64,000 nucleotides of DNA from Candidatus Latescibacterota bacterium. GTDB taxonomy: Bacteria > Latescibacterota > UBA2968 > GCA-2709665. Shown here one piece after another: positions 7,995 through 48,793 of the stretch. Made by a program: the position numbers and the translations under genes. The notes beneath the pieces were generated by a model. It ran no database searches, was not told the DNA's origin, and saw only the letters and a program-made list of their open reading frames with translations. The DNA lies in contig OZ244937.1 of the NCBI GenBank assembly GCA_965222075.1, positions 384,001 through 448,000 on the forward strand. The letters are read 5' to 3'. Numbering within the stretch: position 1 is the first letter of the stretch; each line of letters starts with the position of its first letter.

Positions 7995-8201
7995 ATGCGG
8001 CAAGTGGTTCTATATCCAGGAGAAGATGGCTATTGGGTTGCCGAATGCCCCAGTTTGGCGGGTTGTATCAGTCAGGGTGAATCCCGACAGGCAGCGATTG
8101 CCAGCATCAAGGAGGCGATCGAAGCATACATAGCGGCCCTTGAAGACGACGGCCTGCCGGTTCCCGAGGATCGTTTCGAGGCGTTGGTCGTCGCCGTATG
8201 A
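7995..8201 (+). CDS. hicB: HicB-family antitoxin
   Basis: EDGYWVAECPSLAGCISQGES...IKEAI; overlaps the downstream hicA. Confidence 0.85.
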   Translation: MRQVVLYPGEDGYWVAECPSLAGCISQGESRQAAIASIKEAIEAYIAALEDDGLPVPEDRFEALVVAV

Positions 8202-8419
8202 GCGTACTGCCTTTAATTTCAGGGCGGGAGTGCGTCAGAGCGCTCGCCAGAGTCGGGTTTTACATCAGACGACAACGCGGCAGTCACATTGTTTTGCGTC
8301 GTGACGACCCTTTTGCGCAGCTCGTAGTTCCCGACCACCGGGAACTTGACAGAGGAACACTGCGCGCCATCATAAGACAATGCGGCCTGGGTATAGAGGA
8401 GTTCTCCAAGCTATTGTGA
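8198..8419 (+). CDS. hicA: HicA-family mRNA interferase toxin
   Basis: GF..RRQRGSHIVL, VPDHRELDRGTLRAII. Confidence 0.88.
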   Translation: MSVLPLISGRECVRALARVGFYIRRQRGSHIVLRRDDPFAQLVVPDHRELDRGTLRAIIRQCGLGIEEFSKLL

Positions 8420-8671
8420 CTTTCACATTCATGTGCGATAGATTCATAACTGGAAGACGGGAGTTGGTGATGAACTGACAGTTGACAGCGAATTATGTCC
8501 GTAAGGTTGATGTCACTGATCGCCTCAATATACGGATTCGCAGCGCAGAAGGGGACTACAGTATTTCTGTCTGAATTGCGTGCCCGCAGGCGGATTTGCG
8601 GCTACAAGTCAGTGAATCTGCGCCAGGGCTATCCGCTTCTTGAGATCAGGATACCTGAGCAGGTTTGCGCC

Positions 8672-8885
8672 GTGCAAGCAACGTATCACCAGAGAGAGGA
8701 CGGCAACCATGGCTATCCCCAATCCTGTAGTCAAGTTTACCTACGAAGACTACCTGAATACGCCGGAAGACAAGCGTTACGAGCTTTTGGACGGAGAGTT
8801 GATTATGACCCCTGCGCCTGGAGAACTTCACCAGAGCGTTTCCGCCCAGTTAGGGTGGAGATTGGTTCAGTTCGCATCTGAGAAC
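8672..8885 (+). pseudogene. Truncated duplicate of the Uma2 gene 5' region
   Basis: Closely similar to ~7350-7562 (MAIPNPVVKFTYEDYLNTPEDKRYELLDGE...), then breaks off. Confidence 0.85.
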
Positions 8886-11791: not shown

Positions 11792-14320
11792 ATGAACGAA
11801 GCCACAGCGCGTATCAAGATCAACAAGCTGCTCGAAGCAGCCGGGTGGCGCTTTTTCGACGAAGCGGACAAACCCGCCAATATTTGTCTCGAACCGAGTG
11901 TCAAGATCGGGAGGTCCGACCTTGACGCATTGGGCGACAATTTCGAGAAGACGACCGGCTATATCGATTTTCTCCTGTTGGACGACAGAGGCTTGCCTCT
12001 GATCGTGTTAGAGGCCAAGTCGGAGGAGAAGCAGCCGCTGGTGGGAAAGGAACAGGCACGGAAGTACGCCCGCTCGCAGAACTGCCGGTTTGTTATTCTC
12101 TCGAATGGCAATCTGCATTATTTCTGGGACCTCGAACGCGGCAATCCGTACATCATCACTTCGTTCCCGACGCCGGAGTCGGTGAGTGGCTACAACAAGG
12201 TCAGGCCCGACCCAAAGCGCTTGATCGATGAGCAGATCCGTGAGGATTACATCGTTCTTTCCCAGCGGCCCAATTATGCTTCCGAAGCGGCGTGGAAGAA
12301 CGAAGCCGAACGGCCCGGCTTCATCAAAGCCCACAAGCTGCACTTTCTGCGTGCGTATCAACTGAAAGCCATTCACGCGCTGCAGCGGGCGGTGAAAGAC
12401 GGCAACGACCGGTTTCTGTTCGAGATGGCTACGGGTACGGGTAAGACGCTGGTGGCGGGAGCGATTATCAAGCTCTTTCTGCGCTCCGGCAACGCCTCTC
12501 GGGTGCTGTTCCTGGTGGACCGCCTCGAGCTGGAGGAGCAGGCCAGGAAGGTCTTCGCCGCCTTGTTATCAGCGGACTTTCGGACGGTGGTTTACAAAGA
12601 GAAACGCGACGACTGGCGCTCAGCGGAGATCGTTGTTACCACCGTCCAGTCGCTGCTGTTCAACAACAAGTACCAGGCGCTCTTCTCGCCGACTGATTTC
12701 GATCTCGTGATTTCTGACGAAGCGCATCGGTCCATCAGTGGCAATGCCCGGGCGGTGTTCGACTACTTCGTCGGGTACAAGCTGGGCCTTACCGCGACGC
12801 CTCGAGACTACCTGAGGGGATTTGGCAAGACCGGCCCCAATGTTCACACCCCTCGTGAGGTTGAGCGGAGGCTGTTGCTCGACACGTACCGCACATTTGG
12901 GTGCGAGAGCGGGCAGCCCACGTTCAGGTACTCGCTGCTCGATGGCGTGAAGGACGGCTATCTGATCAATCCTACGGTGGTGGACGCCCGCACCGAGGTG
13001 ACTACCCAATTGCTTGCAGATGACGGTTTCGTGGTCTCCTTCACCGACGATACGGGGGAGGAGCAGGATGAGACGTTCAGGCAGCGCGAGTTTGAGAAGC
13101 GTTTCTTCTCCGATGCAACCAACCAGGTTTTCTGCAAAACGTTTCTTGAGCATGCGCTGCGCGATCCCGTCAGTGGCGAAGTCGGCAAGTCCATCGTTTT
13201 TGCGGTCAGCCAGAACCACGCGGCCAGGCTGACGCAGACTCTCAATGAGATGGCCGATGTCATGTTTCCGGGCAAGTATCAATCGGACTTCGCCGTGCAG
13301 GTCACCTCGCAGATACCGGATGCTCAGCAGTTCACGATCAACTTTGCCAACAACAATCTGCTGGGATCGGACAATTTTCTCTCCGCCTACCGGACGAGCA
13401 AAGCGCGGGTTTGTGTGACGGTTGGGATGATGACCACCGGCTACGACTGCACCGATATTCTGAATCTGGGTCTGTTTCGGCCCATTTTCTCACCTACCGA
13501 CTTCATCCAGATCAAAGGGCGCGGCACGCGGACACACAGCTTCCTGGAGCAGGTACTCGATTCAAGCCTGGCGGAGGGTGTGGTCCAGCCCGATAAGACC
13601 GCGTTCAAGCTGTTCGATTTCTTTGGCAACTGCGAGTACTTCGAGACCGCGTTCGACTACGACGAGGTGTTGAAGCTGCCTGTCTATAAAGATGTCCGTG
13701 AGAGAGGGGGCGGGGAATCGCCCGGCTCCGACGCAGGCGCCTACGCGTACCTGGGCAGGGACATCCTCTCCACGATCGGGGAGGAGACCATCGGTTCGGA
13801 GGGGATGAAGATCGACCGCATGTTCTTTGAGAAGTTCGAGGATGCCGTGCGACAGGACGAGGTCATCGCAGCAGCCGTCGAGGCCGGGCAGTGGGACCGG
13901 GTGATCGACTATGTCAACCAGGAGGTTTTCGACCGGCCCGAGGAGTATTACACCCTGGCCAAGCTGCGCCAGGCCGCGGCCGTGGACCGCCGCCTCACTT
14001 TGCGCGAGATTCTGGAGAAGGCGTTCGGGCTGATCCCGCATTTCAAATCCAGGGACGAAATGCTGGAGGAGGAATTCGCCAAGTTCGTGGCTGACTATAC
14101 GCCCGAAGAGGTCGCGTCCATCCCGGCGATCAAGACGTATTTCAAGGCGTACGTGACGAGCGACCAGATCCGCCACATTATCGAAAACCGGCATTTCACC
14201 GACCTGGCCACCAACCCGGTTTTCTCTACGCAGGACCTGCGCGCCGTGCCGGAAAAATACCGCGGCCTTGTTCCCGAGTACGTCAAGGATTATGTGCCGT
14301 TGAACCAGTTTGCTGCATAG
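11792..14320 (+). CDS. hsdR: Type I restriction enzyme R subunit (HsdR, DEAD-type translocase)
   Basis: Nuclease motif IDFLL..VLEAK; MATGTGKT; DEAHRS; GLTATP; QIKGRGTR. Confidence 0.92.
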   Translation: MNEATARIKINKLLEAAGWRFFDEADKPANICLEPSVKIGRSDLDALGDNFEKTTGYIDFLLLDDRGLPLIVLEAKSEEKQPLVGKEQARKYARSQNCRFVILSNGNLHYFWDLERGNPYIITSFPTPESVSGYNKVRPDPKRLIDEQIREDYIVLSQRPNYASEAAWKNEAERPGFIKAHKLHFLRAYQLKAIHALQRAVKDGNDRFLFEMATGTGKTLVAGAIIKLFLRSGNASRVLFLVDRLELEEQARKVFAALLSADFRTVVYKEKRDDWRSAEIVVTTVQSLLFNNKYQALFSPTDFDLVISDEAHRSISGNARAVFDYFVGYKLGLTATPRDYLRGFGKTGPNVHTPREVERRLLLDTYRTFGCESGQPTFRYSLLDGVKDGYLINPTVVDARTEVTTQLLADDGFVVSFTDDTGEEQDETFRQREFEKRFFSDATNQVFCKTFLEHALRDPVSGEVGKSIVFAVSQNHAARLTQTLNEMADVMFPGKYQSDFAVQVTSQIPDAQQFTINFANNNLLGSDNFLSAYRTSKARVCVTVGMMTTGYDCTDILNLGLFRPIFSPTDFIQIKGRGTRTHSFLEQVLDSSLAEGVVQPDKTAFKLFDFFGNCEYFETAFDYDEVLKLPVYKDVRERGGGESPGSDAGAYAYLGRDILSTIGEETIGSEGMKIDRMFFEKFEDAVRQDEVIAAAVEAGQWDRVIDYVNQEVFDRPEEYYTLAKLRQAAAVDRRLTLREILEKAFGLIPHFKSRDEMLEEEFAKFVADYTPEEVASIPAIKTYFKAYVTSDQIRHIIENRHFTDLATNPVFSTQDLRAVPEKYRGLVPEYVKDYVPLNQFAA

Positions 14321-14327
14321 GGAACAT

Positions 14328-14471
14328 GGATAGACAGGATAGACAGGATAGACAGGATAGACAGGATAGACAGGATAGACAGGATAGACAGGATAGACAG
14401 GATAGACAGGATAGACAGGATAGATAGGATAGACAGGATAGATAGGATAGACAGGATAGACAGGATAGACA
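14328..14471 (+). repeat. Tandem array of 16 x 9-bp GGATAGACA (units 11 and 13 are GGATAGATA)
   Basis: Counted directly; it is an expanded left arm of repeat family B. Confidence 0.95.
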
Positions 14472-14481
14472 GGATGAGAAG

Positions 14482-14862
14482 ATGCTGCACGCGAGGCTGA
14501 CTCGCTCGATTATCGGGTGCGCGTTTGAGGTGATCAATGAGCTTGGGAGCGGGTTTTTGGAATCCGTATATGAGAAGGCGATGATGGTTGCTCTATCCGA
14601 TGTCGGAGTTTCCTTTGAGGTCCAAAAGCCCATCGGAGTGAGTTTTCGTGGAAAGCCCGTTGGCGATTTCTACGCGGATATTCTTGTCGAAGACAAAGTG
14701 ATCGTCGAACTCAAAGCGGTGAAGGCTCTGGCGCCAGAGCATGAAGCCCAGGTCATCAACTATTTGAATGCGACCGGCGTCGAGGTCGGACTGCTGATCA
14801 ACTTCGGGAGTCCGAGACTGGAATTCAAACGCTTTACACGGAGTAAGAATAAACATGGATAG
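14482..14862 (+). CDS. GxxExxY protein (PD-(D/E)xK fold putative nuclease)
   Basis: GFLESVY motif; ADILVEDKVIVELKAV; QVINYL; GLLINFG. Confidence 0.92.
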   Translation: MLHARLTRSIIGCAFEVINELGSGFLESVYEKAMMVALSDVGVSFEVQKPIGVSFRGKPVGDFYADILVEDKVIVELKAVKALAPEHEAQVINYLNATGVEVGLLINFGSPRLEFKRFTRSKNKHG

Positions 14863-14919
14863 ACAGGATGGACAGGATAGAATCAACGGCCTGAAATCCT
14901 GTTCATCCATGTGAATAAA
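14854..14919. repeat. Hairpin repeat family B copy, overlapping the GxxExxY stop
   Basis: CATGGATAGACAGGATGGACAGGAT...ATCCTGTTCATCCATGTGAATAAA. Confidence 0.85.
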
Positions 14920-14936
14920 TCAGAAGACGGGAGTTA

Positions 14937-15161
14937 GTGATGACCAGACAGTTGACAGCAATTATCGAACGCGAAGGCGATGGCTACGTCGCCCTCTGCG
15001 CTGAGTTGGACATTGCGAGTCAGGGGGCAACCGTGGCTGAGGCTCGGGAAAATTTGAAGGAGGCATTGGAGTTGTTTTTCGAGACGGCTTCAGCCACCGA
15101 AATTCAGCAGCGGCTGCACGAGGAAGTGTACGTAACGCAGGTGGAGGTCGCAGTTGGCTAA
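14937..15161 (+). CDS. hicB: HicB-family antitoxin (copy 1 of a repeated gene)
   Basis: IIEREGDGYVALCAELDIASQGATVAEARENLKEAL. Confidence 0.85.
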   Translation: MMTRQLTAIIEREGDGYVALCAELDIASQGATVAEARENLKEALELFFETASATEIQQRLHEEVYVTQVEVAVG

Positions 15162-15372
15162 ACTCCGGGTATTATCAGGCCGGGAAGCCTGCGGAATACT
15201 TGCGAATCACGGATTTATCGAGGTCCGGCGCAGGGGTAGCCATGTAATCATGCAAAAGGTCGAGCCCAGCAGCACCATCACCGTCCCGGTTCCTGACCAC
15301 AGGGAACTGCGGATGGGAACGCTGATGTCAATCATTAGGCAATCGGGGCTGCCCAGAACATTGTTCGAGTAA
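15154..15372 (+). CDS. hicA: HicA-family toxin
   Basis: GFIEVRRRGSHVIM, VPDHRELRMGTLMSII. Confidence 0.87.
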   Translation: MAKLRVLSGREACGILANHGFIEVRRRGSHVIMQKVEPSSTITVPVPDHRELRMGTLMSIIRQSGLPRTLFE

Positions 15373-15420
15373 AGTACATCATTTGCCGTTGTACACGCAC
15401 AATTCGTCATTGATGCGCAG

Positions 15421-15548
15421 ATGGAGGGGAAGATACGGGCGGTCATTGGGCGGGTGTGGGGTGACGAGTAACATGGATACACAGGATAGGCAGGATGAAA
15501 AACTGAAAATCCTGAAATCCTGTTCATCCTGTCCATCCATGTAAATTA
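15421..15548 (+). repeat. hsdS-3'-like segment (MEGKIRAVIGRVWGDE*) plus full family B hairpin
   Basis: Similar to the true HsdM-S end at 18043-18084 followed by ATGGAT..ACAGGAT...ATCCTGTTCATCCTGTCCATCCAT. Confidence 0.85.
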
Positions 15549-15558
15549 AGGAGATCGC

Positions 15559-18126
15559 ATGCTTGATGCCGAAACGAAACGCCGCATCGACACCGCCCGC
15601 GATATTCTCGTGGGCAAGGTGCCCGACCCCAAGAGCCAGGTTGAGCAGATTACCATCGCGCTGATCTACAAGTTTATGGACGATATGGATGCCGGGAGCG
15701 AGGAATTCGGGGGTGTGCGCAAGTTCTTTGCCGGCGAGTTCGCCCGCTTCGGCTGGGCCAGGCTGATGCGCTCCGGCCTGGGCGGGCACGAGATGCTCAA
15801 TCTCTACGCTGAGGCCATTGTCAAGATGCCGGAGAACCCCGGCATTCCGGCGCTTTTCCGGGATATTTTCCAGAATGCCTTTTTGCCCTACCGCGATCCG
15901 GAGACTCTGCGCGCTTTCTTGAAGGTCATCGACGAGTTCACCTACGATCACAGCGAACGGCTGGGCGACGCCTTTGAGTATCTGCTTTCGGTCCTGGGCT
16001 CGCAGGGTGACGCCGGGCAGTTCCGCACGCCGCGCCATATTATCGATTTTATCGTGTCGGTGGTCGATCCGAAGAAGGAAGAGACTGTGCTCGACCCGGC
16101 CTGCGGTACCGCCGGGTTCCTGATTTCGTCGTACAAGCATATTCTGGAGGCCAATACCGACGATGAGGGGAACAGTACGCTCACGCCGGACGAGAGAGGC
16201 AAACTCGCGGCCAATTTCAAGGGCTATGATATTTCGCCGGATATGGTGCGCCTGTCGCTGGTGAATCTGTACCTGCACGGCTTTGCCGATCCGCATATCT
16301 TTGAATACGACACGCTGACGAGCGAGGATCGCTGGAACGAGTATGCCGATGTGATTTTGGCCAATCCGCCGTTTATGTCGCCCAAGGGCGGCATCCGCCC
16401 GCACAGCCGCTTTTCGGTGAAGTCCAAACGCAGCGAAGTGCTGTTCGTGGACTATATGGCGGAGCATCTGACGCCTGCGGGGCGCGCCGGTATTATTGTG
16501 CCGGAGGGCATTATCTTTCAGAGCCAGAACGCCTATAAGCAGTTGCGCAAGGTGCTGGTGGAAAATTATCTGGTGGCCGTCATTTCGTTGCCGGCGGGCG
16601 TGTTTCAGCCCTATTCAGGGGTCAAGACGTCCATTCTGCTGCTGGACAGGGCGCTGGCGAAAAAGACGGACCGCATCGCGTTTTTCAAGGTGGAAAACGA
16701 TGGGTTTGATCTGGGGGCGCAGCGGCGGGAGATTGCGGAGAACGACTTGCCGCAGGTGACGGAGAAGCTTGGCGAATATCTGGGGCGGCTACGGGCGGGC
16801 GAGTCGGTGTACGACTTCGAGCCGGCGCCGACCGCTCGTGTGGCGGAACCTGGGGTGGAGTATACAACGGACAGTTTTCAACCCACATTTGGGCTGATCG
16901 CCGATAAGGAGAAGATTGCGGCGGGTGGGGAGTATAATCTGAGTGGGGAGCGGTATCGGACTGAACACTCCATCCGATCCGATTGGCCTTCTGTGAGAGT
17001 GAGAGATGTATTCAAGAAGGCGGAGGAAACTGTCTTGCCTATGTCGCTCCGTGGTCCCGTGAGCTACGTAGGGCTTAAAAATATTACGCAGACCAGCGGT
17101 CAACTATCAGGGAATATCACGACCGATAATCCAGCAGAGATCAAGAGTCTGAAGAATGTCTTCTGTCCCGGCGACATTCTCTATGGAAAGCTACGGCCGA
17201 ATCTCAACAAGGTCTGGCTCTCGGATCGGAAGGGAATCTGCTCGACAGATATATTCGTTGTTCGGCCTCTGGATGAACGTGTTTTACCAGCCTTGTACGC
17301 CTACGTCTTTCGAAGTGGTCACTTCAATGATGCAGTCTTGGGCCAACTCAAAGGTGCACAGCTTCCGCGTATAGGTTGGCAGTCGTTTGCAAACCTCGAA
17401 ATCCCCCTACCGCCGCTGGAGGTGCAGCGGGAGATTGTGGCGGAGATAGAGGGGTATCAGCGGGTGATAGACGGGGCGCGGGCGGTGATTGACAACTACC
17501 GGCCGCATATTGTGGTTGATCCTGAGTGGCCGGCAAAAGAGCTATCTGAAGTCGCAATCAGAATCACTGACGACACCCATACAACTCCAAATTACACAGA
17601 CTCAGGGATTCCTTTTCTCCGGGTCACTGATATTACTAAAAGCAACGCATCAAAAAAGTTTATCTCTGAAGAGGAACATATGAAGCTCATTAAAAGGTGC
17701 CATCCACAGAAGGGAGATGTCCTATATTCAAAAAATGGCACAATCGGAGTTGCGAAGGTAATTGATTGGGAAGGGGATTTCAGCATCTTCGTAAGCCTTG
17801 CTCTGATCAAGCCGCGTCGAGAATTAGTAAACTCTCGTTATCTTGAGTATTTCCTGAATTCGGACACCGCTTATGCACAGGCTACATCTCGATCAAAATC
17901 CGGAACGGTGACTAACCTTCACTTGGTAGATATCAAGACAATTAAAATCCCTCTTCCACCTCTAATCAAGCAGCAAGAAGTCGTCGCCGAGATCGAAGCC
18001 GAGCAGGCACTGGTGGATGCTAACCGGGAGTTGATTGAGCGATTTGAGAAGAAGATACGGGATGTGGTGGGGCGGGTGTGGGGGTTAAGTACCATGGATA
18101 AACAGGATAGACAGGATGAAAACTGA
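15559..18126 (+). CDS. Type I R-M fused methyltransferase-specificity subunit (HsdM-HsdS)
   Basis: GQFRTP, DPACGTAGFL (motif I), NPPF (motif IV); two TRDs ending PLPPLEVQREIVAEIE and PLPPLIKQQEVVAEIE; C-terminus reads into repeat B. Confidence 0.92.
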   Translation: MLDAETKRRIDTARDILVGKVPDPKSQVEQITIALIYKFMDDMDAGSEEFGGVRKFFAGEFARFGWARLMRSGLGGHEMLNLYAEAIVKMPENPGIPALFRDIFQNAFLPYRDPETLRAFLKVIDEFTYDHSERLGDAFEYLLSVLGSQGDAGQFRTPRHIIDFIVSVVDPKKEETVLDPACGTAGFLISSYKHILEANTDDEGNSTLTPDERGKLAANFKGYDISPDMVRLSLVNLYLHGFADPHIFEYDTLTSEDRWNEYADVILANPPFMSPKGGIRPHSRFSVKSKRSEVLFVDYMAEHLTPAGRAGIIVPEGIIFQSQNAYKQLRKVLVENYLVAVISLPAGVFQPYSGVKTSILLLDRALAKKTDRIAFFKVENDGFDLGAQRREIAENDLPQVTEKLGEYLGRLRAGESVYDFEPAPTARVAEPGVEYTTDSFQPTFGLIADKEKIAAGGEYNLSGERYRTEHSIRSDWPSVRVRDVFKKAEETVLPMSLRGPVSYVGLKNITQTSGQLSGNITTDNPAEIKSLKNVFCPGDILYGKLRPNLNKVWLSDRKGICSTDIFVVRPLDERVLPALYAYVFRSGHFNDAVLGQLKGAQLPRIGWQSFANLEIPLPPLEVQREIVAEIEGYQRVIDGARAVIDNYRPHIVVDPEWPAKELSEVAIRITDDTHTTPNYTDSGIPFLRVTDITKSNASKKFISEEEHMKLIKRCHPQKGDVLYSKNGTIGVAKVIDWEGDFSIFVSLALIKPRRELVNSRYLEYFLNSDTAYAQATSRSKSGTVTNLHLVDIKTIKIPLPPLIKQQEVVAEIEAEQALVDANRELIERFEKKIRDVVGRVWGLSTMDKQDRQDEN

Positions 18127-18169
18127 AAACCCTGAAATTCTGTTCATCCTGTCTATCCACTTGAATAAA
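18093..18169. repeat. Hairpin repeat family B copy
   Basis: CATGGATAAACAGGATAGACAGGATG...TTCTGTTCATCCTGTCTATCCAC. Confidence 0.85.
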
Positions 18170-19799: not shown

Positions 19800-20327
19800 A
19801 TGCGAAAGTTCACACTATGCATCCTGTTTTACTGCTTAGGTGCCGTCTCTACATGCTTAAGCGCTGAAGAAACAACGAAGAAAGCGGTTTCTTTGAAAGG
19901 CATCACCGCGCGGCGCTTCACACATCGCTCGATCATCGTCAAGTTCACCACTTCACCTGTGAAGTTTAAGTTTGAACGGGCTGGTGATGAGTTCAACGGC
20001 TTCTCTGCTAACACAAATGCCAGGCATATGTGGATTAACCTGGAAGGACAACCTCTCACCAAGGTAATCCTGTTCTATGCTGTCTCAACAGATCACGCCG
20101 TCAATATGGTCAATACGGGAGTGGCGCTGGACCTCCTCAATCACCTCTTCCCCGATTGGGAGGCAAGAGGTAAATGGTATGCCAACGCGCTGCAATCAGT
20201 CATCCAGTCCAGAGAGCTGAACGACGTGAGACGTAAGATGAAGACCAGGAACGGACTGCGCATCGAGCTGGAATACCACAAGATGGCGGGGCTACTAAGG
20301 CTATATGTAAGTCGTATAACCTATTGA
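19800..20327 (+). CDS. Hypothetical exported protein
   Basis: Signal-peptide-like N-terminus, RBS GAGGAG; no recognised family. Confidence 0.6.
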   Translation: MRKFTLCILFYCLGAVSTCLSAEETTKKAVSLKGITARRFTHRSIIVKFTTSPVKFKFERAGDEFNGFSANTNARHMWINLEGQPLTKVILFYAVSTDHAVNMVNTGVALDLLNHLFPDWEARGKWYANALQSVIQSRELNDVRRKMKTRNGLRIELEYHKMAGLLRLYVSRITY

Positions 20328-20338
20328 AGGATAACGCC

Positions 20339-20674
20339 ATGCAACAGATCCAGATGGTAGACCTCCACAATGGATTGCAGGGACTCCACGGCTTTACCCG
20401 TGATAAGTTCACAGAGACCGACAAGCAGATCAAGGAGCTGCGAACTCATGTCGACCAGCGCTTTGCAGAGACCGACAAGCAGATCAAGGAGCTGCGAACT
20501 CATGTCGATCAGAGATTCGCAGAAACAGATCAGAAGATCGAAGAGTTCCAAAATCAGGTTGACCAGCGCTTTGAACAGGTTGATCGACGCCTGGGATGCA
20601 TAGAAAGCGACCTGAGTTCTGTCAAGAGCGACCTGAAAGCTATCAAGGATGCGCTTTCAATTATAAGGATATGA
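20339..20674 (+). CDS. Coiled-coil protein with 18-aa tandem repeats
   Basis: (FA)ETDKQIKELRTHVDQR x2 plus a degenerate third unit; 54-bp DNA units starting 20412, 20466, 20520. Confidence 0.7.
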   Translation: MQQIQMVDLHNGLQGLHGFTRDKFTETDKQIKELRTHVDQRFAETDKQIKELRTHVDQRFAETDQKIEEFQNQVDQRFEQVDRRLGCIESDLSSVKSDLKAIKDALSIIRI

Positions 20675-21326: not shown

Positions 21327-21429
21327 CGGGGCGGATGTGGGGGGACGAGAAAGATGGATAAACAGGATAGACAGGATGAAAACTGAAAGCCCTGAAATCC
21401 TGTTCATCCTGTCCATCCATGTGAATAAA
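21327..21429. repeat. Junction segment plus family B hairpin
   Basis: GGGCGGATGTGGGGGGACGAGAAAG-ATGGATAAACAGGATAGACAGGAT...ATCCTGTTCATCCTGTCCATCCATGTGAATAAA. Confidence 0.88.
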
Positions 21430-21446
21430 TCAGAAGACGGGAACTG

Positions 21447-21671
21447 GTGATGACCAGACAGTTGACAGCAATTATCGAACGCGAAGGCGATGGCTACGTC
21501 GCCCTCTGCCCTGAGTTGGACATCGCGAGTCAGGGAGCAACCGTGGCTGAGGCTCGGGAAAATTTGAAGGAGGCATTGGAGTTGTTTTTCGAGACGGCTT
21601 CAGCCACCGAAATTCAGCAGCGGCTGCACGAGGAAGTGTACGTAACGCAGGTGGAGGTCGCAGTTGGCTAA
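21447..21671 (+). CDS. hicB: HicB-family antitoxin (copy 2)
   Basis: One amino acid different from 14937-15161. Confidence 0.85.
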   Translation: MMTRQLTAIIEREGDGYVALCPELDIASQGATVAEARENLKEALELFFETASATEIQQRLHEEVYVTQVEVAVG

Positions 21672-21882
21672 ACTCCGGGTATTATCGGGCCGGGAAGCCT
21701 GCGGAATACTTGCGAATCACGGATTTACCGAGGTCCGGCGCAGGGGCAGCCATGTAATCATGCAAAAGGTCGAGCCCAGCAGCACCATCACCGTCCCGGT
21801 TCCTGACCACGGGGAACTGCGGACGGGAACGCTGATGTCAATCATTAGGCAATCAGGGTTGCCCAGAACTCTGTTCGAGTAA
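21664..21882 (+). CDS. hicA: HicA-family toxin (copy 2)
   Basis: Three amino acids different from 15154-15372. Confidence 0.87.
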   Translation: MAKLRVLSGREACGILANHGFTEVRRRGSHVIMQKVEPSSTITVPVPDHGELRTGTLMSIIRQSGLPRTLFE

Positions 21883-22081
21883 AGTACATCATTTGCCGTT
21901 GTCCACGCACAATTCGTCATTGATGCGCAGATGGAGGGGAAGATTCGGGCGGCGATTGGGCGGGTGTGGGGCGGTTAACTCTACCAGGATAACATCAGAT
22001 GAATCGGTATATTTCTCAAATCTCAGGACGACAGATTCCGATAACCCTTGAGGCCCTTCTTGTCGAGGTGTCCACAATCTC

Positions 22082-25000
22082 ATGAGACACATTCCCACAT
22101 CCTTGTATATTGACACGGAGGTGTTCAAGCGCCAGAGACTGCGTTTGGACACAAGTGTCTTTAACTCGCTGAAAGACACATTTGTCAAGGGAGGACTTCG
22201 CTTGTTGGTTCCGGCTATGATGGAACGCGAGCTTCTTCGGCACTATCGGAGGCAGGCTGAAGAATGTGCGAACGCGGTTCATAAGGCACAACAGAAGCAC
22301 CCTATGCCATTCTTGGGAATGTGGACGCCACGGCCTAAAAACGAGGTTATAGATGAATGTTTCAATGAGCTTATATCGCAGTGGGAGCAGTTCAAATCAC
22401 ACTTCACTGTTGAGGAGTTGCCACTTGTTGGGGACCTCGGCCGCGTCGTGAATTGGTATTTTTCGGTTGAGCCACCATTTTCTACAGATAAGAAGAAGGA
22501 ATTTCCCGACGCTTTTATTCTGAGCACCCTGGAAGCATATCACAATGACCACAAGGCAAACATCGCCGTGGTGAGTGGGGATGGAGACTTTGGTAAAGCC
22601 TGTAAGATTCGGCGTTACATACAGCATTTTGACAGTCTCGAAAAATATGCTGACGCGTTCAAACCCGAACTCACAAGGGAGCGATATTTAATCGAGGAGC
22701 CTGTCGATCCAACTCAACCGATTGTTACCGAAGATTTGCAGGAACTAAAAGCCATATTAGGTCGAGGAGTTGGTGCTACTCAGGTCGAGATTGATCGAGT
22801 GATAAAGCTATTACAACGTCGTGGCGAGAACTATCGCTATTTCTTTTATAATGCAGATGAGCCGATGTGGCTTCCTCGTCTGAAGGCCAGTGGTTTGTTC
22901 GACAATCCACCAGAAGTTGAACGAACTGAAGATGGAAGTTTCAAGATTCCTGATTGGCCACCGATTTATTATCTCGAGAGAGTTTTTGGATCAGATCGTG
23001 AGGAAGTCCTTACCATATTGGAGGGACTACCTGAAAGCACGAACCCACGTGTGCTTGAGGAAGTTATGACCATAGTTCTGAAGTCGGACGATACGAATGA
23101 CCTGATGCGTCTCTCTGAGAAGATTCTGGCCTTTGTAGACCATTCTCGATGGGGCTATGAGAAAATCATACAACTGGTTAATAGGCTCTCGCTTATGGAC
23201 AGGCGTTTCGGCGGGTTTTCAGAATCAGTTTTACTCAAGGTAGTTGAGTTTCAACTCGACCAGAAAGCCGAAGATAAGCAGGCCCGCCGCAGAGCGAACC
23301 CCGAAGACTGGACAACTTTACTTGACCCACAACCACGCTTTGACGAGTGGGAATATAATCAAATACTGGAAAAAGGTGTCCGACCTTTGTCGGAGCGGGA
23401 GCCTTACCCAACCGCCCGAATATTGATCGATGCCACCTCGACCATGATACGTCTCACATTCCATCAGGGCGAACTTGAAGAGAGCAGCGGTAACGATCCT
23501 ACCATTTTTGAGTGGCGGCGCGTGAACGAACCTGGCAGTGATTACCCAGACTCGAAGGAGATTCTTGTTCATGCGCTCACGTTCGTCTGCGAAAAAGTCT
23601 ATGAGAAGTCACCGGAGTCCGTGGCGGCGCTGGATCAAGCGTTGCGAAACCAGCGTTGGGCCATTTTCACACGTATCCGCCAGCATCTTTACACGCTGCA
23701 TCCAAATGAACAAACCAGGCCCTGGATTCGTGAGATGATCCTTACTTATGAAGACTACGACAAATGGGAGCACCTCTTTGAGTTTCAGCGCATGATTCGC
23801 CTCGCATGTGAAAATTTCGGCGCCAATTTGCTCACCAAGGCCGAAAAGGAGCGGAGATTTGAGGCTATCCTTAGCGGGCCATCGGAACAGCGTTTTCGGG
23901 ACCGGATGGGAGACCGTTTTACCGAAGCATCATTTGAAGAACGAAAACGCTCTTTCCACAGAATGCAACTGCGTCCATTTGCTTCAGTGCTCTTCGGCAA
24001 ATACGGTGAATACTTTGAAGAGCTAAAAGCGGAAGAAGAAAAGCCGATTACGGATAACGACTATGCGCCTTATAAGTTGGAGGATGAGAGGATAGGAGAG
24101 AAGCGCAGTCCGAAGCCGGCTGAAGAACTGGAGAAAATGTCAGATGAGGAACTTCTTTCGTTCTTGAACGAATGGGAAAATGTCCATTATGATCCTGACG
24201 AGTGGTGGGTGGACATCAATTTCGAAGGGCTTGCTTGGGCGTTTCAGGCGATCTTCAAAAAGCTTATCGTACCTGACGAATCACGGTTACAGTTCTGGTG
24301 CGAAAATCGGGAACGATTGGAGCGACCTATCTATGTGAGGGTGATGGTGTCTGCCATTCACGAGCAAGTAAAACTCAAGCAATTCGACAAGCTCGATCAA
24401 TGGTTCGATTTCTGCGAATGGGTTTTGTCCCATCCAGACCGATCGGAAGAGGAAGGTGTCAACCACGGCGATGAATCCAGAGAGCATCCGGACTGGCATA
24501 GGTCACGTCGAGCGGTGGGCGATTTTGTCAAGATGTGTCTGACAGAGGAGGTCAACGTCCCAATCTCAGTGCGCCAGCGTCTCGCCTCTTTGTTGGATAA
24601 GCTTTGCACTCAATATGACAGGGGATTGGATGATGACGAGCCTGTTCTTCTGAACCGCGACGACCAGCTAACCGAATCGATCAACAATACACGAGGCCGG
24701 GCGCTGGATCATCTGGTCGATTTCGGCTATTGGGTGCGCCGCCAACTGGAGGACGATCAAGCGGATACGCCTGAGGTTTTCGCCATCCTCGACAAGCGAC
24801 TCGGTTCGGAATGCGAGCACGCACTGAAACTGCCTGAATATGCCCTTCTTGGGCTGCATTACATCCGTATATTCGTTCTGAATCGGGAGTGGGCAGTTCG
24901 ACATAAGAGTGACGTTCTTCCGCAAGAGAACCTGTGGGCATGGGTGGAGGCCTTTGGGAATTTTCTTAAATATAACCGGCCTTATAGGCCAATCTTTGAT

Positions 25001-29531: not shown

Positions 29532-29570
29532 GAGAGCCCCCTGCGTAACCAAAAAATACCACTGCACATA

Positions 29571-29599
29571 AGTATAGCATTTCCCCGGCCAAATGTCAA
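29571..29599 (-). promoter_or_regulatory. Sigma-70 promoter of the DUF5131 gene
   Basis: TTGACA-17 bp-TATACT on the minus strand; duplicated at 31316-31344. Confidence 0.75.
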
Positions 29600-29708
29600 G
29601 GCGGCGAGTGGGTGGGGGGAAAGATGGATAAAGAGGATAGATAGAAAGACACCAATCATGGGCTTGATACCCAAGCCTAAAACCGTCCACTAAACCGGGG
29701 TAACTCCA

Positions 29709-31118: not shown

Positions 31119-31137
31119 TGGTCTGACTTCCGTTATC

Positions 31138-31344: not shown

Positions 31345-31442
31345 GGCGGCGAGTGGGTGAGTGTGGGGGGAAACACTGAAACCCCTGAAATCCTGTTCAT
31401 CCATGTGGATAAATTCGAATGTTATAACGATATAGAGGAATT

Positions 31443-39778: not shown

Positions 39779-39890
39779 TGTCAAGAGGCGAGTGGGTGTG
39801 GGGTGACGAGAAAGATGGATAAACAGGATAGACAGGATGAGAACTGAAAACCCTGAAATCCTGTTCATCCTGTCCATCCATGTGAATAAA
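39779..39890. repeat. Junction segment plus family B hairpin
   Basis: TGTCAAGAGGCGAGTGGGTGTGGGGTGACGAG...ATGGATAAACAGGATAGACAGGAT...ATCCTGTCCATCCATGTGAATAAA. Confidence 0.88.
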
Positions 39891-39907
39891 ACAGAAGACG
39901 GGAGTTG

Positions 39908-40201
39908 GTGATGACCAGACAGTTGACAGCAATTATCGAACGCGAAAACGATGGCTACATCGTCCTCTGCCCTGAGTTGGACATCGCAAGTCAGGGAGCA
40001 ACCGTGGCTGAGGCTCGGGAAAATTTGAAGGAGGCATTGGAGTTGTTTTTCGAGACGGCTTCAGCCACCGAAATTCAGCAGCGGCTGCACGAGGAAGTGT
40101 ACGTAACGCAGGTGGAGGTCGCAGTTGGCCAGACTCCGGCGGATGGAGGGGAGGATTCGGGCGGCGATTGGGCGGATGTGGGGGACGAGAAAGATGGATA
40201 A
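39908..40201 (+). CDS. hicB: HicB-family antitoxin (copy 3); hicA deleted, frame runs into the junction repeat
   Basis: Closely similar to copies 1 and 2 up to VAVG; stop TAA replaced by CAG. Confidence 0.75.
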   Translation: MMTRQLTAIIERENDGYIVLCPELDIASQGATVAEARENLKEALELFFETASATEIQQRLHEEVYVTQVEVAVGQTPADGGEDSGGDWADVGDEKDG

Positions 40202-40269
40202 AGAGGATAGACAGGATGAGAACTGAAACCCCTGAAATCCTGTTCATCCTGTCCATCCATGTGAATAAA
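40143..40269. repeat. hsdS-3'-like segment plus family B hairpin
   Basis: Encodes MEGRIRAAIGRMWG followed by the full hairpin. Confidence 0.88.
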
Positions 40270-45123: not shown

Positions 45124-46263
45124 TCAGGATAGGAATCGTGTGATTTGATAGGCGTCGATATCGGTTGTGAGGTCTTTGTTCAGCATGAGGTCGGCGATGA
45201 GTTTGCCGCTGTACGGGCCCAGCTGCAGGCCGGTGGGCCCATGCCCGGTTGCGAGGTAGACGTTCCGGATGTTGGGGACGGGTCCGAGTACGGGCAGGAA
45301 GTCTTCCGTGCAGGGGCGCAGGCCAACGCGAATTTCACGGATTTCAGCCGCGGCCAGGCCGGGCGCCACCCGGAGCGCTTCGGCGAGGACCTCCCGGACC
45401 CCGGCGGCCGTGGTGTGGGGTTCGAAACCGGATCCGGTTTCGCGCGTGGCGCCGACGACCACCCGATTGTCCGGCCAGGGCACCATGTAGTGGCCGCGAA
45501 GGGCGTTGATGATGCACCACGACGAAGTATCGGTGGTGGCGGGCAGGCCCAGGTGGATGATCTGACCGCGCTGGGGTTCTACAGGGATGTGAACGCTCAG
45601 CTGGTGGCCGAATGCGTGCGACCAGGCGCCGCCAGCGATCGCCACCTTGCCGGCTGAGATGGTCCGGCCGTCCGTGATGACACCGGTTACCGAGTCGTTT
45701 TCGGTGCGCAAGTGTTCAACGCTGGCGTGTTCGACGGCGAGTCCCCGGGCCTCGGCGGCACGGCGCAGGGCGGCTGTCAGGAGTCGGCCGTCAACGCGGG
45801 CGGCCTCACGGTAGTAGATGGCGCCCCGGACGTGGGCCAGGGCGGGGAAGCGGTTGCGGGCTTCTTCGGATGAGATTTCGTAGAGGTCTGCGGCAGCGGG
45901 CTCGCCGCGGTGACTCCGGCGGTTGAAAATGCGCCGGCGGGCAATGGCAAAGGGTTGCAGTTCGTCGTCCGAGACGGCGACGATCATCATGCCGCAGGTT
46001 GCAAAGCCGGTCTCGCCGTCCTGTTCGGCCCGCAGATTTTCGATCAGTCCGGGATAATATTTGACGGCAAGGGAGGCCAGACGCAGCCACGGGTCCGGGT
46101 CGCGGGTATTGGTGGCGGGAGACAGAATGCCCGCGCCCGCGTCGGTGGCGCGACCCGTGTCTTTCCGGTCGATGAGCAGGGTTCTGGCGCCGTCGCAGAC
46201 CAGGTGGTAGGCGGTGGACATGCCAACGATGCCGCCGCCGATGACAATGGCGTCATAAATCAT
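45124..46263 (-). CDS. FAD-dependent oxidoreductase (D-amino acid dehydrogenase/glycine oxidase family)
   Basis: MIYDAIVIGGGIVG, ATDAGAG, GLRP, ATGHGPTGL; the longer ORF upstream is repeat DNA. Confidence 0.9.
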   Translation of the reverse strand: MIYDAIVIGGGIVGMSTAYHLVCDGARTLLIDRKDTGRATDAGAGILSPATNTRDPDPWLRLASLAVKYYPGLIENLRAEQDGETGFATCGMMIVAVSDDELQPFAIARRRIFNRRSHRGEPAAADLYEISSEEARNRFPALAHVRGAIYYREAARVDGRLLTAALRRAAEARGLAVEHASVEHLRTENDSVTGVITDGRTISAGKVAIAGGAWSHAFGHQLSVHIPVEPQRGQIIHLGLPATTDTSSWCIINALRGHYMVPWPDNRVVVGATRETGSGFEPHTTAAGVREVLAEALRVAPGLAAAEIREIRVGLRPCTEDFLPVLGPVPNIRNVYLATGHGPTGLQLGPYSGKLIADLMLNKDLTTDIDAYQITRFLS

Positions 46264-46344
46264 TTTCGTCCTGTTCATCCATGTGAATAAAACGGAAGAG
46301 GGGAGCCGGTGATAACCGGACAGCTGCTTGGAAAATAGGCTTTG

Positions 46345-47070: not shown

Positions 47071-47137
47071 TCCTGGATGATAAAATTGAAAGTAGAACTT
47101 GCATATTTCTCTCTTTTCCGGTACATTTGGCGGTACC

Positions 47138-48319: not shown

Positions 48320-48414
48320 TGGATTTTCTCTGGCGATAGGTGGCGCTAAATCAGGCTAATTCAAATTTAAATATTGATATAGCCTATTTCCCTGCTATAC
48401 TCCGGGATCTACCG

Positions 48415-48470
48415 CATGGACAGGAAGAAAACTGAAGACTCTGAAATCCTGTTCATCCATGTGAATCAAT
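48415..48470. repeat. Degenerate family B copy
   Basis: CATGGACAGGAAG...CTGAAATCCTGTTCATCCATGTGAAT. Confidence 0.75.
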
Positions 48471-48491
48471 CAAACCAGAAGACGAGAGCTG

Positions 48492-48716
48492 GTGATGACC
48501 AGACAGTTGACAGCAATTATCGAACGCGAAGGCGATGGCTACGTCGCCCTCTGTCCTGAGCTGGACATTGCGAGTCAGGGATCAACCGTGGCTGAGGCTC
48601 GGGAAAATTTGAAGGAGGCATTGGAGTTGTTTTTCGAGACGGCTTCAGCCACCGAAATTCAGCAGCGGCTGCACGAGGAAGTGTACGTAACGCAGGTGGA
48701 GGTCGCAGTTGGCTAA
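48492..48716 (+). CDS. hicB: HicB-family antitoxin (copy 4); the following hicA is truncated after ~13 codons
   Basis: Closely similar to copies 1-3; MAKLRVLSGQEACG then unrelated and repeat A sequence. Confidence 0.83.
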   Translation: MMTRQLTAIIEREGDGYVALCPELDIASQGSTVAEARENLKEALELFFETASATEIQQRLHEEVYVTQVEVAVG

Positions 48717-48793
48717 ACTCCGAGTATTATCGGGCCAGGAAGCCTGCGGGTTGGCGCCCCTGCCTTGCCGTCTCCCCCGGTTTGGTGTGAAGG

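What the first reader, a model, noticed from the sequence alone, without database searches (positions are those of the whole stretch)
14325..14919. GxxExxY nuclease gene bracketed by the hairpin repeat that is scattered through the island: candidate autonomous element with MITE-like derivatives
Seen: the gene is preceded by a tandem-expanded left arm (CATGGATAGACAGGAT...) and its stop codon lies in another copy. The same ~75-bp imperfect palindrome (ATGGATAAACAGGATAGACAGGAT-loop-ATCCTGTTCATCCTGTCCATCCAT, 24-bp arms built of 9-bp units with regularly spaced mismatches) recurs without the gene at 15472, 18093, 21354, 39815 and 40194, with partial copies at 29624, 31375, 46268 and 48415. All are in the same orientation. 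Established: GxxExxY proteins have a PD-(D/E)xK fold and no assigned function. Inference: this may be a REP/RAYT-like pairing in which the nuclease recognises or propagates its cognate repeat.
Basis: partly seen in the sequence, partly recalled or inferred. Interest (0 to 1): 0.8.

Follow-up and report, generated by a model that had tools for sequence, protein, structure and literature searches.

The report
Nuclease gene cassette between repeat-built arms
A small nuclease gene of unknown function sits between two inverted arms made of a repeated 9-base word, wedged into a restriction-modification operon; gene and arms recur as one unit in many bacterial phyla and look like an undescribed kind of selfish gene cassette.

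Summary
A 126-aa GxxExxY (PF13366) gene lies between a 16-unit array of GGATAGACA and a 60-bp imperfect palindrome of the same word, inserted between hsdR and hsdM-S. Close homologues from more than ten phyla carry the same ends (ACATGGATnnnCAGGATnnnCAGGAT ... ATCCTGnnnATCCTGnnnATCCATGT): 49 of 75 loci against 1 of 271 control windows. More distant GxxExxY clades have other words. The same R-M junction is empty (a 9-10 nt gap) in 32 of 72 resolved metagenome operons. In related operons it holds three GxxExxY clades, each with its own word, 23S-IVS-protein cassettes, gene-less palindromes or short scars. So gene plus arms is a mobile unit.

The REP/RAYT-like reading is only partly supported. 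The gene-less copies in this island flank hicBA toxin-antitoxin cassettes and share an hsdS-derived flank, so they spread by duplication or recombination and are not clean MITE insertions. Several relatives hold dozens of arms but no PF13366 gene. Unrelated cargo uses the same design.

Best guess (0.45): the nuclease reads its own heptamer words and promotes copying or swapping of the cassette. I found no paper describing this. Earlier notes of this scan reported the same design on other DNA.

The parts
11792..14320 (+). hsdR (type I restriction subunit); its stop codon lies 3 nt before the cassette's left end
   Evidence: ResIII, HSDR_N Pfam hits
14324..14475 (+). Left arm of the cassette: ACATGGAT followed by a tandem expansion of the 9-bp unit (16.4 copies). 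Two units carry CAG-to-TAG changes.
14482..14862 (+). GxxExxY PD-(D/E)xK nuclease gene, 126 aa, with catalytic E27, D66, E76 and K78 present
14853..14912 (+). Palindrome P1 (two-unit arms). It closes the GxxExxY cassette, holds its stop codon and lies 82 nt upstream of hicB.
14937..15372 (+). hicB (14937-15161) and hicA (15154-15372), a toxin-antitoxin cassette
   Evidence: HicA_toxin E 3.9e-17; the module recurs
15373..15471 (+). Tail: remnant of an hsdS 3' end (reads ...IGRVWGDE*)
15471..15542 (+). Palindrome P2, directly before the hsdM ribosome-binding site
15559..18126 (+). hsdM-hsdS fusion gene. Its reading frame now ends inside palindrome P3.
   Evidence: N6_Mtase and Methylase_S hits
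18094..18160 (+). Palindrome P3
21329..21971 (+). Second module: 25-bp hsdS-derived flank, palindrome P4 (21354-21422), hicB (21447-21671), hicA (21664-21882) and tail. 94% identical to 14851-15461.
29624..29650 (+). Left half-palindrome, preceded by a 232-bp repeat
31372..31414 (+). Loop and right half-palindrome, preceded by the other copy of the 232-bp repeat
39794..40262 (+). Third module: flank, P5 (39815-39883), hicB with hicA deleted, tail, P6 (40194-40262)
46257..46291 (+). Right-arm remnant upstream of a minus-strand FAD oxidoreductase gene
48405..48749 (+). Fourth module, decayed: degenerate palindrome (48405-48460) and hicB (48492-48716), cut off after hicB

Best explanation
The feature is one copy of a widespread small selfish cassette. 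A roughly 125-aa GxxExxY PD-(D/E)xK nuclease gene is carried between two inverted arms. Each arm is a short array of a 9-bp unit (conserved heptamer ACAGGAT plus two free bases) and ends in ACATGGAT / ATCCATGT.

SHOWN: gene and arms travel as one unit across more than ten phyla. Other GxxExxY clades carry other words. Here the cassette is inserted between the hsdR stop codon and the hsdM ribosome-binding site of a type I RM operon. In related operons that junction is empty, or is occupied by three different GxxExxY clades, by 23S-IVS-protein cassettes or by gene-less palindromes, or is left with a one-word scar.

INFERRED: the encoded nuclease reads the heptamer words of its own arms as iterons, on duplex or extruded-hairpin DNA, and cuts there. 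Recombinational repair then copies, swaps or deletes the cassette, in a homing-like way and not by cut-and-paste. Pairing of the two arms in the read-through transcript may also loop the cassette out, so that the host operon keeps working.

The gene-less palindromes of this island are derivatives but not proven MITEs. They frame hicBA cassettes that use the same arms, and they spread inside the island together with an hsdS 3' flank, by duplication or palindrome-to-palindrome recombination.
For: Unit of gene plus arms: 49 of 75 homologous loci with enough flank have CAGGAT within 120 nt upstream and ATCCTG within 200 nt downstream, against 1 of 271 displaced windows. A word-free test (any 6-mer at least twice upstream with its reverse complement at least twice downstream) gives 52 of 97 against 12 of 287. 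The loci come from Chloroflexota, Verrucomicrobiota, Planctomycetota, Acidobacteriota, Spirochaetota, Bacteroidota and other phyla, at 56-84% protein identity.

Sequence-specific constraint: in 31 left and 30 right arms the heptamer carries about 1-2 bits per position and the two spacer bases 0.1-0.6 bits, with period 9 on both arms. Opposed spacer triplets pair less often than shuffled ones (31% against 44 +/- 3%, 25 palindromes). So the word itself is conserved, not just the ability to pair.

Clade-specific words: CAGGAT, AGGGAT, CACAGAT, CACGAAT/G, GCGGATTA, TGTGATT, TTACAAGAT, CGAAA-type and CACAAAG-type words map onto protein clades, even within one genome.

Mobility: 32 of 72 resolved metagenome R-M junctions are empty (9-10 nt), 2 hold the CAGGAT cassette, and others hold other cargo. 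In the same order, operons with HsdR 76-89% and HsdM 87-92% identical carry GxxExxY genes of 77-81% (CAGGAT), 48-50% (CACGAAG) or 46-47% (CACAAAAG) identity. Others carry gene-less palindromes, nested arms or 26-30 nt scars. L020 and L023 carry 18-30 nt of the hsdM 5' end along with the cassette.

Active nuclease: E27, D66, E76 and K78 are invariant in 36 sequences. The AF2 model has pLDDT 91.7 and its best PDB folds are Cas4, lambda exonuclease and Hjc.
Against: No binding or cleavage data exist. Arms persist without the gene: no PF13366 match in G054 (complete, 26-30 arm hits), G049, G038 or G039. G057 (102 arm hits), G050, G046 and G045 have only GxxExxY genes of 38-44% identity with other words. 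In the window's genome the copies sit in one island and share flanking sequence, so nothing shows recent transposition. The same arm design frames unrelated cargo: PF05635 four-helix-bundle genes, hicBA, a DUF1016/YhcG gene. The architecture is therefore not specific to this nuclease. Clade-specific words would also follow from simple co-inheritance of gene and arms. I found no clear target-site duplication. A 125-aa nuclease has no strand-transfer or ligation activity of its own. Insertion at the one permissive site of an RM operon could reflect survivorship and not targeting.
Confidence: 0.45

Rival explanations
1. IVS-like RNA device. The arms matter as RNA. In the read-through operon transcript they pair into a long stem that RNase III cuts, or that simply loops the cassette out, as in the intervening sequences of 23S rRNA. 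The insert is then harmless to the host operon. The nuclease is cargo with an unrelated role, and DNA mobility comes from ordinary recombination.
For: Cassettes sit exactly between a stop codon and the next ribosome-binding site. They share the orientation of the upstream gene in 54 of 66 loci and of the operon in all RM loci seen. PF05635 (23S rRNA IVS protein) cassettes with word arms fill the same junction (L150, L129, L166). IVS elements are bordered by complementary ends that form a stem cut by RNase III (PMC4990558, abstract and passages).
Against: A requirement for pairing alone does not explain a reiterated conserved heptamer with free spacers, nor spacer triplets that pair less than chance. 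In the window the 16-unit left array has no matching long partner, and the RNA fold of the whole cassette pairs only the local palindrome. No RNA data were available.
Confidence: 0.22
2. Cassette recombination sites. The palindromes are sites for an unlinked site-specific recombinase (integron-like or Xer-like) that inserts and excises promoterless cassettes. GxxExxY, hicBA and the others are merely frequent cargo.
For: The window holds one-orientation arrays of palindromes around small genes. Related genomes hold them at a conserved DUF1844-NUDIX locus, with hicBA and PIN cargo. The P-hicBA-tail-P module is what recombination between two palindromes would give.
Against: None of the 41 window ORFs scanned (6.9-52.4 kb) is a tyrosine or serine recombinase. 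Words differ between cassettes in one genome, which one recombinase would not tolerate. Many copies are left arm-cargo-right arm, not cargo followed by a whole site.
Confidence: 0.1
3. Defence accessory with an operator. GxxExxY is a working partner of RM or defence loci, and the arms are operator or regulatory sites through which the protein controls its own or its neighbours' expression. Spread is by transfer of whole islands.
For: Both GxxExxY genes of this genome follow RM genes. 13 of 80 homologous loci lie in the same RM operon. The left arm overlaps the gene's own start codon.
Against: 67 of 80 loci are not in this RM operon; examples are radA-FAD protein in Bacteroides finegoldii and the Dehalococcoidia loci. 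32 of 72 operons work with an empty junction. Three clades replace one another at one junction.
Confidence: 0.12
4. Passive repeat. The palindromes are host REP-like elements or terminators, and their link to the gene is an accident of shared ancestry within the island.
For: In this genome all copies but one lie in a single island and share flanks.
Against: The same ends flank homologues in more than ten phyla and many contexts, against 1 of 271 controls. The backwards-pattern control gives 0 in 168 genomes. No T-run follows the hairpin. There is no Rfam match. The genome's two Y1 transposase matches lie at 2.07 and 3.02 Mb, far from any copy.
Confidence: 0.04

Closest known systems
REP / REPIN - RAYT systems
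   Same: A single-copy gene for a DNA-cutting enzyme is flanked by its own imperfect palindromes. Gene-less copies occur elsewhere in the genome, the words are lineage-specific, and the distribution among relatives is patchy.
   Different: The enzyme is a PD-(D/E)xK nuclease, not a Y1/HUH transposase. The arms are arrays of a 9-bp iteron and not a single short hairpin. Copy numbers are tens, not hundreds. Copy number does not follow gene presence. This genome's Y1 genes lie far from the repeat.
Intervening sequences (IVS) of 23S rRNA genes with an S23p / four-helix-bundle ORF (PF05635)
   Same: A small ORF lies between terminal inverted repeats that can form a stem. The elements are horizontally spread and their means of mobility is unknown (PMC4990558). 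PF05635 cassettes with word arms occupy the very junction that holds the GxxExxY cassette here.
   Different: The host site is an mRNA operon junction and not an rRNA helix. The ORF is a nuclease. The arms are reiterated words with mismatched spacers and not a near-perfect 28-bp stem. RNase III processing is untested.
Free-standing homing endonuclease genes
   Same: A small nuclease gene is present or absent at one conserved site between conserved genes. Flanking host sequence is carried along (L020, L023). Different variants succeed one another at the same site.
   Different: Homing endonuclease genes need no terminal inverted arms. No recognition of the empty junction has been shown. Three clades with different arm words use the same junction.
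MITEs / foldback elements / mobile insertion cassettes
   Same: Terminal inverted repeats, here built from tandem short units as in foldback elements (recalled from memory, not checked in a paper). Gene-less derivatives and copies with passenger genes such as hicBA exist.
   Different: There is no DDE transposase and no clear target-site duplication. Gene-less copies can be explained by decay in place and by segmental duplication.
Integron gene cassettes and attC sites
   Same: Promoterless small genes, often toxin-antitoxin pairs, are separated by imperfect palindromes in a single orientation.
   Different: No integrase is nearby. The ends are ACATGGAT / ATCCATGT, not the attC core sites (core-site consensus recalled from memory). 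Words differ between neighbouring cassettes. Cargo often sits inside a split palindrome.

Membership tests
GxxExxY protein / PDDEXK_3 (PF13366) | Profile match above the curated cut-off | tested here: met
   E 2.1e-42, 144.6 bits against 22; profile positions 2-117 of 117 matched
GxxExxY protein / PDDEXK_3 (PF13366) | GxxExxY motif and the D...ExK catalytic core | tested here: met
   GFLESVY at residues 24-30. G24, E27, Y30, D66, E76 and K78 are invariant in 36 aligned sequences.
GxxExxY protein / PDDEXK_3 (PF13366) | PD-(D/E)xK fold | tested here: met
   AF2 pLDDT 91.7, pTM 0.85. Foldseek PDB top hits are Cas4 SSO0001, lambda-type exonucleases and Hjc, TM about 0.5. No solved structure was found by sequence.
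REP/REPIN-RAYT | Associated gene is a Y1 (HUH) transposase, PF01797 | tested here: not met
   The associated gene is PF13366. The genome's two PF01797 matches lie at 2.07 and 3.02 Mb, with no repeat copy near them.
REP/REPIN-RAYT | Repeat abundance follows presence of the cognate gene | tested here: not met
   G054, G049, G038 and G039 have 9-30 arm hits and no PF13366 match. G057 has 102 hits and no CAGGAT-clade gene.
23S rRNA intervening sequence (IVS) | Inserted in a 23S rRNA helix | tested here: not met
   Inserted between hsdR and hsdM-S
23S rRNA intervening sequence (IVS) | ORF between terminal inverted repeats able to form a stem | tested here: met
23S rRNA intervening sequence (IVS) | Excision from the transcript by RNase III | not testable with these tools
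   No RNA run was listed for this DNA
Integron cassette / attC | Integron integrase next to the array | tested here: not met
   No recombinase family among the 41 window ORFs scanned between 6.9 and 52.4 kb. ORFs outside that range were not scanned.
Integron cassette / attC | One shared site family along an array | tested here: not met
   Arms of different words lie side by side or nested at one junction (L266, L268, L281)
Cut-and-paste transposon / MITE | Target-site duplication of fixed length at the ends | tested here: inconclusive
   Ribosome-binding-site-like GGAG motifs stand on both sides in some copies (for example GGAGTT in L013), but not consistently
Homing endonuclease gene | Presence/absence polymorphism at one conserved site | tested here: met
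   32 empty, 2 CAGGAT-type and many otherwise occupied junctions among 72 resolved; 20 relatives' loci
Homing endonuclease gene | The nuclease cuts the empty site | not testable with these tools
   Needs biochemistry

The most novel reading that the evidence does not exclude
GxxExxY proteins are iteron-reading nucleases. Together with their arms they form a previously unrecognised class of minimal, nuclease-only mobile cassette. This class specialises in stop-codon/ribosome-binding-site junctions of operons, with RM operons as a favoured landing pad. It spreads by break-induced copying, lends its arms to passenger cassettes such as hicBA, and on decay seeds REP-like palindromes. The 23S rRNA intervening sequences would be the four-helix-bundle branch of the same design.
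Probability: 0.3. Interest if true: 0.85.

Novelty: new variant of a known kind. Interest (0 to 1): 0.7.

Why it matters
PF13366 is a very large family: 7,998 of the 8,000 candidates scored in one search matched. It is spread over most bacterial phyla and has no assigned function; PMC3424549 lists it as 'Unknown' with multiple transfers (passage read). If its members are the engines of small cassettes defined by their own word arms, three puzzles get one testable answer. The first is what this family does. The second is where many lineage-specific palindromic repeats come from. The third is what the long-known but unexplained intervening sequences of 23S rRNA are related to. The R-M junction described here supplies empty, filled, swapped and scarred alleles of one site, which is the material needed to design a mobility assay. 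Practically, such cassettes split operons and extend reading frames: here hsdM-S now ends inside a palindrome, and homologues are annotated with an MDxQDxQD start. That misleads annotation.

Tried and rejected
- Rfam scan of 14.0-22.5 kb at E up to 1: no family matched.
- Solved structures by sequence: none.
- RAYT link: rejected.
- Integron reading: considered and set low. No recombinase was found, the words are mixed, and the repeat is absent from the rest of the genome.
- Peptide reading of the left arm (MDxQDxQD) as the reason for its conservation: rejected, because the non-coding right arm keeps the same heptamers.
- Sequencing runs: no RNA holder was listed.
- Contigs of four runs laid on 13.8-18.4 kb gave many joints between arms. 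Their sides were under 31 letters and other letters lay between, so they are most likely other palindrome copies of the communities. I draw nothing from them about excision, and nothing from the high summed depth over the arms.
- Homodimer prediction: the tool's queue was full and it was then declared unavailable. Nothing was folded.
- Plasmid and phage collections: only 8 of 72,556 plasmid records and one virus (two records) hold a homologue, all below 60% identity, so no obvious vehicle.
- Target-site duplication: looked for, not settled.
- The first attempt to compare the two paralogues used wrong coordinates and was corrected.
- One script stopped on a bug; the analysis was redone.
- Literature: searches for GxxExxY, PDDEXK_3 and PF13366/TIGR04256 gave 3, 1 and 2 papers. 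In those I opened (PMC8934634 one passage, PMC3424549 one passage) nothing concerns flanking repeats. The others I saw only as search listings. Two searches on IVS gave PMC4990558, of which I read the abstract and passages. No supplements were opened.
Full report
WHAT IS AT THE COORDINATES. The window carries a type I restriction-modification operon: hsdR (11792-14320) and a fused hsdM-hsdS gene (15559-18126). Three bases after the hsdR stop codon comes ACATGGAT, followed by 16.4 tandem copies of GGATAGACA (14328-14475; TRF, 97% matches). Next comes a 126-aa ORF (14482-14862) that matches PF13366/PDDEXK_3 at E 2.1e-42. Its stop codon lies inside the left arm of a 60-bp imperfect palindrome (14853-12). 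The word ATGGATARACAGGAT (up to 2 mismatches) occurs 34 times in the window against 0.11 expected. Gene-less palindromes start at 15473, 18094, 21354, 39815 and 40194, and partial copies lie at 29624, 31372, 46257 and 48405. All share one orientation. As single-stranded DNA they fold into three 6-7 bp helices separated by small internal loops (dG -11 to -17 kcal/mol, z -3.0 to -6.5). The ATG of the left arm is in frame with the gene, but two CAG-to-TAG changes inside the expanded array break that frame, so the protein must start at 14482.

WHERE THE REPEAT IS IN THIS GENOME. In the 5.36-Mb genome the repeat is confined to window 14.3-48.5 kb. The single exception is a palindrome at genome position 1,475,526, which again sits between a stop codon and the next ribosome-binding site. 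The genome has two PF13366 genes. The second (2,982,320-2,982,715; 44% identical) also follows the C-terminus of an RM gene. It is preceded by CAGGAT-containing words and followed by ATCCTG.

WHAT THE GENE-LESS COPIES OF THE ISLAND ARE. Self-comparison shows that the duplicated unit is larger than the palindrome. The stretch 14851-15461 (palindrome, hicB, hicA and a roughly 90-bp tail) is 94% identical to 21350-21971. Parts of it recur at 39794-40139 (96%) and 48405-48749 (92%). Tail plus palindrome recurs at 40139-40269. Every full palindrome except the one closing the GxxExxY gene has the same 25-50 bp left flank, GGGCGGGTGTGGGGnGACGAG. That flank encodes ...GRVWGDE*, the natural C-terminus of HsdM-S in seven operons of other phyla, where no palindrome follows it. 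So the island's copies descend from one 'hsdS 3' end plus palindrome' and spread together with neighbouring DNA, by segmental duplication or by recombination between palindromes. They are not clean independent insertions. They frame hicBA toxin-antitoxin cassettes at least as much as the nuclease gene.

THE GENE AND ITS ARMS ARE ONE UNIT ACROSS PHYLA. The family is huge: 7,998 of the 8,000 scored candidates matched. The annotated N-termini of close homologues read MDxQDxQD, which is the left arm translated. I fetched the 80 best loci from one-genome-per-species contigs (56-84% identity; Chloroflexota, Verrucomicrobiota, Planctomycetota, Acidobacteriota, Spirochaetota, Bacteroidota, Nitrospirota, Desulfobacterota and others). 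Of the 75 with enough flank, 49 have CAGGAT within 120 nt upstream and ATCCTG within 200 nt downstream, against 1 of 271 windows displaced within the same loci. The ends are ACATGGATnnnCAGGATnnnCAGGAT ... ATCCTGnnnATCCTGnnnATCCATGT. A test that assumes no word (an inverted 6-mer at least twice on each side) is positive in 52 of 97 loci against 12 of 287 controls. In 31 left and 30 right arms the heptamer ACAGGAT is conserved at about 1-2 bits per position, while two spacer bases are nearly free (0.1-0.6 bits), with period 9. Opposed spacer triplets pair less often than shuffled ones (31% against 44 +/- 3%; only 25 palindromes, some of them related). What is conserved is therefore a reiterated word on both arms, not base pairing as such.

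EACH CLADE HAS ITS OWN WORD. More distant GxxExxY genes are flanked by the same design with other words: CACAGAT, TTACAAGAT, CACGGAT, CACGAAT, CACGAAG, GCGGATTA, TGTGATT, CGAAA-type and CACAAAG-type, and CAGAGGAC in a Bacteroides finegoldii record between radA and an FAD-protein gene. On a protein tree the words follow the clades, with a few switches inside the large CAGGAT clade (quick tree, many forks unresolved). Words differ between cassettes within a single genome. They therefore belong to the cassette and not to the host.

A NATURAL EXPERIMENT AT THE R-M JUNCTION. Thirteen of the 80 loci have the window's context, hsdR-cassette-hsdM. I used the HsdR C-terminus to fetch 80 metagenome operons. 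In 72 of them the junction could be resolved. Thirty-two are empty, with 9-10 nt (TAA-AGGAGACCCC-ATG). Three hold 108-126 nt hairpins. Two hold the CAGGAT cassette. The remaining 35 hold other inserts. Pfam on 22 proteins from 18 representative loci identified KilA-N proteins, PF05635 '23S rRNA intervening sequence protein' genes between TGATTG/CAATCA word arms (L150, L129 and L166 above the cut-off; five longer proteins just below it), a DUF1016/YhcG nuclease, and an IS200-like transposase.

Within the window's own order, 20 of 53 genomes have this operon. In the relatives' 20 loci, HsdR is 62-89% and HsdM 86-92% identical (100% over the short stretch matched in L269), yet the junction varies widely:
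- GxxExxY genes of 77-81% identity with CAGGAT words.
- GxxExxY genes of 48-50% identity with CACGAAG words.
- GxxExxY genes of 43-47% identity with CACAAAAG words.
- Gene-less palindromes (L280, L284).
- A CAGGAT left arm beside a CACGAAG palindrome (L281).
- CACAAAAG arms nested inside CAGGAT arms, with or without a gene (L266, L268).
- 26-30 nt remnants that keep one word (L276, L278).
This shows repeated invasion, replacement, decay in place and scarring. It also shows that gene-less palindromes need not have moved. L020 and L023 carry 18-30 nt of the hsdM 5' end with the cassette, as expected if transfer goes through recombination with flanking homology.

ARMS WITHOUT THE GENE, AND OTHER CARGO. 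Across 168 genomes of the phylum the 24-nt arm pattern (up to 1 mismatch) occurs in 24 genomes. The backwards control gives 0. The phylum is probably Latescibacterota, judged from the record title of L008, which is identical to L085 of a same-family genome, and from earlier notes of the scan. One genus of the same family has the pattern in 15 of 15 genomes, with 13-102 hits. The other genome of the window's own genus has none. GxxExxY genes of any clade occur in 62 of the 168 genomes. G054 (one contig, 26-30 arm hits), G049, G038 and G039 have no PF13366 match at all. G057 (102 hits), G050, G046 and G045 have only 38-44%-identical genes with other words. In that genus, arms lie 0.5-1 kb apart in arrays between DUF1844 and NUDIX genes and enclose hicBA and PIN genes. 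Of the 8 hicB homologues at 84% identity or more, 7 have a left arm within 260 nt upstream and 6 have both arms; of all 27, 8 have both. The arms thus also serve passenger cassettes, and their number does not follow the cognate nuclease today.

THE PROTEIN. G24, E27, Y30, D66, E76 and K78 are invariant in 36 sequences down to 41% identity. The AlphaFold model is confident (pLDDT 91.7). Its nearest solved folds are Cas4, lambda-type exonucleases and the Holliday-junction resolvase Hjc, none closer than TM about 0.5. It looks like an active minimal PD-(D/E)xK nuclease.

HOW IT MOST LIKELY WORKS. Shown: gene plus arms is a mobile unit, the words are cassette-specific and under sequence constraint, and insertion lies between a stop codon and the next ribosome-binding site, mostly co-oriented with the upstream gene (54 of 66 loci, crude ORF calls). 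Inferred: a reader that changes specificity together with the cassette is most simply the cassette's only protein. I therefore favour a nuclease that binds its own heptamer iterons and cuts at the arms or at extruded hairpins, so that repair copies, swaps or deletes cassettes. Arm pairing in the transcript may serve as a second function that keeps the host operon working.

The main rival is the purely RNA-level, IVS-like reading. Integron-like recombination, a regulatory operator, and a passive repeat are less likely, for the reasons given in their sections. The weak points of my reading are these: arms without the gene, the same design around unrelated cargo, co-inheritance as a trivial source of clade-specific words, no clear target-site duplication, and the absence of any experiment.

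WHAT IS KNOWN. Searches for GxxExxY, PDDEXK_3 and PF13366/TIGR04256 found six listings in all. None of the texts I opened deals with flanking repeats. The superfamily survey lists PDDEXK_3 as 'Unknown' with multiple transfers (PMC3424549, passage). The IVS of 23S rRNA is the nearest described design: an ORF between complementary ends, cut by RNase III, horizontally spread, with mobility unexplained (PMC4990558, abstract and passages). Earlier notes of this scan report GxxExxY genes between repeat-built palindromes on other genomes. I re-tested that claim here independently. I add the R-M junction series, the hicBA passengers, the hsdS-derived flank and the genomes that have arms but no gene.

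Noticed in passing
window 6600-50300: The repeat lies in a defence-type island of lower third-position GC. Besides the type I RM it holds a second hicA with an adjacent small ORF (8198-8881), a 1198-aa PIN_12 protein (22082-25678), GmrSD (26574-28424), a DUF5131 gene, an IS5-family transposase fragment (25978-26331) and a DUF4143 ATPase (47099-48319).
   Followed up: partly
window 29383-29614 and 31130-31359: A 232-bp direct repeat (92%) precedes the left half-palindrome in one copy and the loop plus right half in the other. About 1.5 kb lies between them, including a PNP_UDP_1 phosphorylase gene. This looks like a palindrome split by an insertion or a rearrangement.
   Followed up: no
genome G000 2,982,000-2,983,000 (locus L002): The second GxxExxY gene is preceded by a roughly 130-bp tandem duplication rich in CAGGAT-type words. 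On both sides lie fragments encoding the LYGLTxEEI C-terminus typical of RM enzymes, as if the cassette had duplicated the end of its host gene.
   Followed up: partly
loci L119-L198 (metagenome R-M junctions): The hsdR-hsdM junction of this RM family is a general hotspot. KilA-N genes, PF05635 cassettes, a DUF1016/YhcG nuclease and an IS200-like transposase occur there, besides 32 empty junctions.
   Followed up: partly
L113-L115 (G046, G047, G048): A conserved chromosomal slot between DUF1844 and NUDIX genes holds different arrays of arm-bounded small cassettes (hicBA, PIN, unknown ORFs) in different genomes of one genus.
   Followed up: partly
L114 3440-3550; L266, L268, L281: Arms of one word family lie inside the loop of, or next to, palindromes of another family. 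This suggests that cassettes insert into one another or succeed one another at one site.
   Followed up: partly
L282 (G091), junction after hsdR: The junction begins with a long tandem array of 7-mers (GACGGGA / GGCGAGA), another expanded arm-like array with no GxxExxY hit nearby.
   Followed up: no
L046, L054, L078 and window 14328-14475: The number of units in an arm varies from 2 to more than 20 between homologous cassettes (22 CAGGAT downstream in L046, 7 upstream in L054). The arms therefore expand and contract like microsatellites.
   Followed up: no
G050, G057, G059 (coordinates): In three relatives the arm-flanked hicBA lies just upstream of hsdR of the same RM operon. The hicBA-RM link is therefore older than the window's arrangement.
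   Followed up: no
window 20412-20573: Three copies of a 54-bp repeat (80% matches) lie inside a coiled-coil-like small ORF (20324-20674).
   Followed up: no
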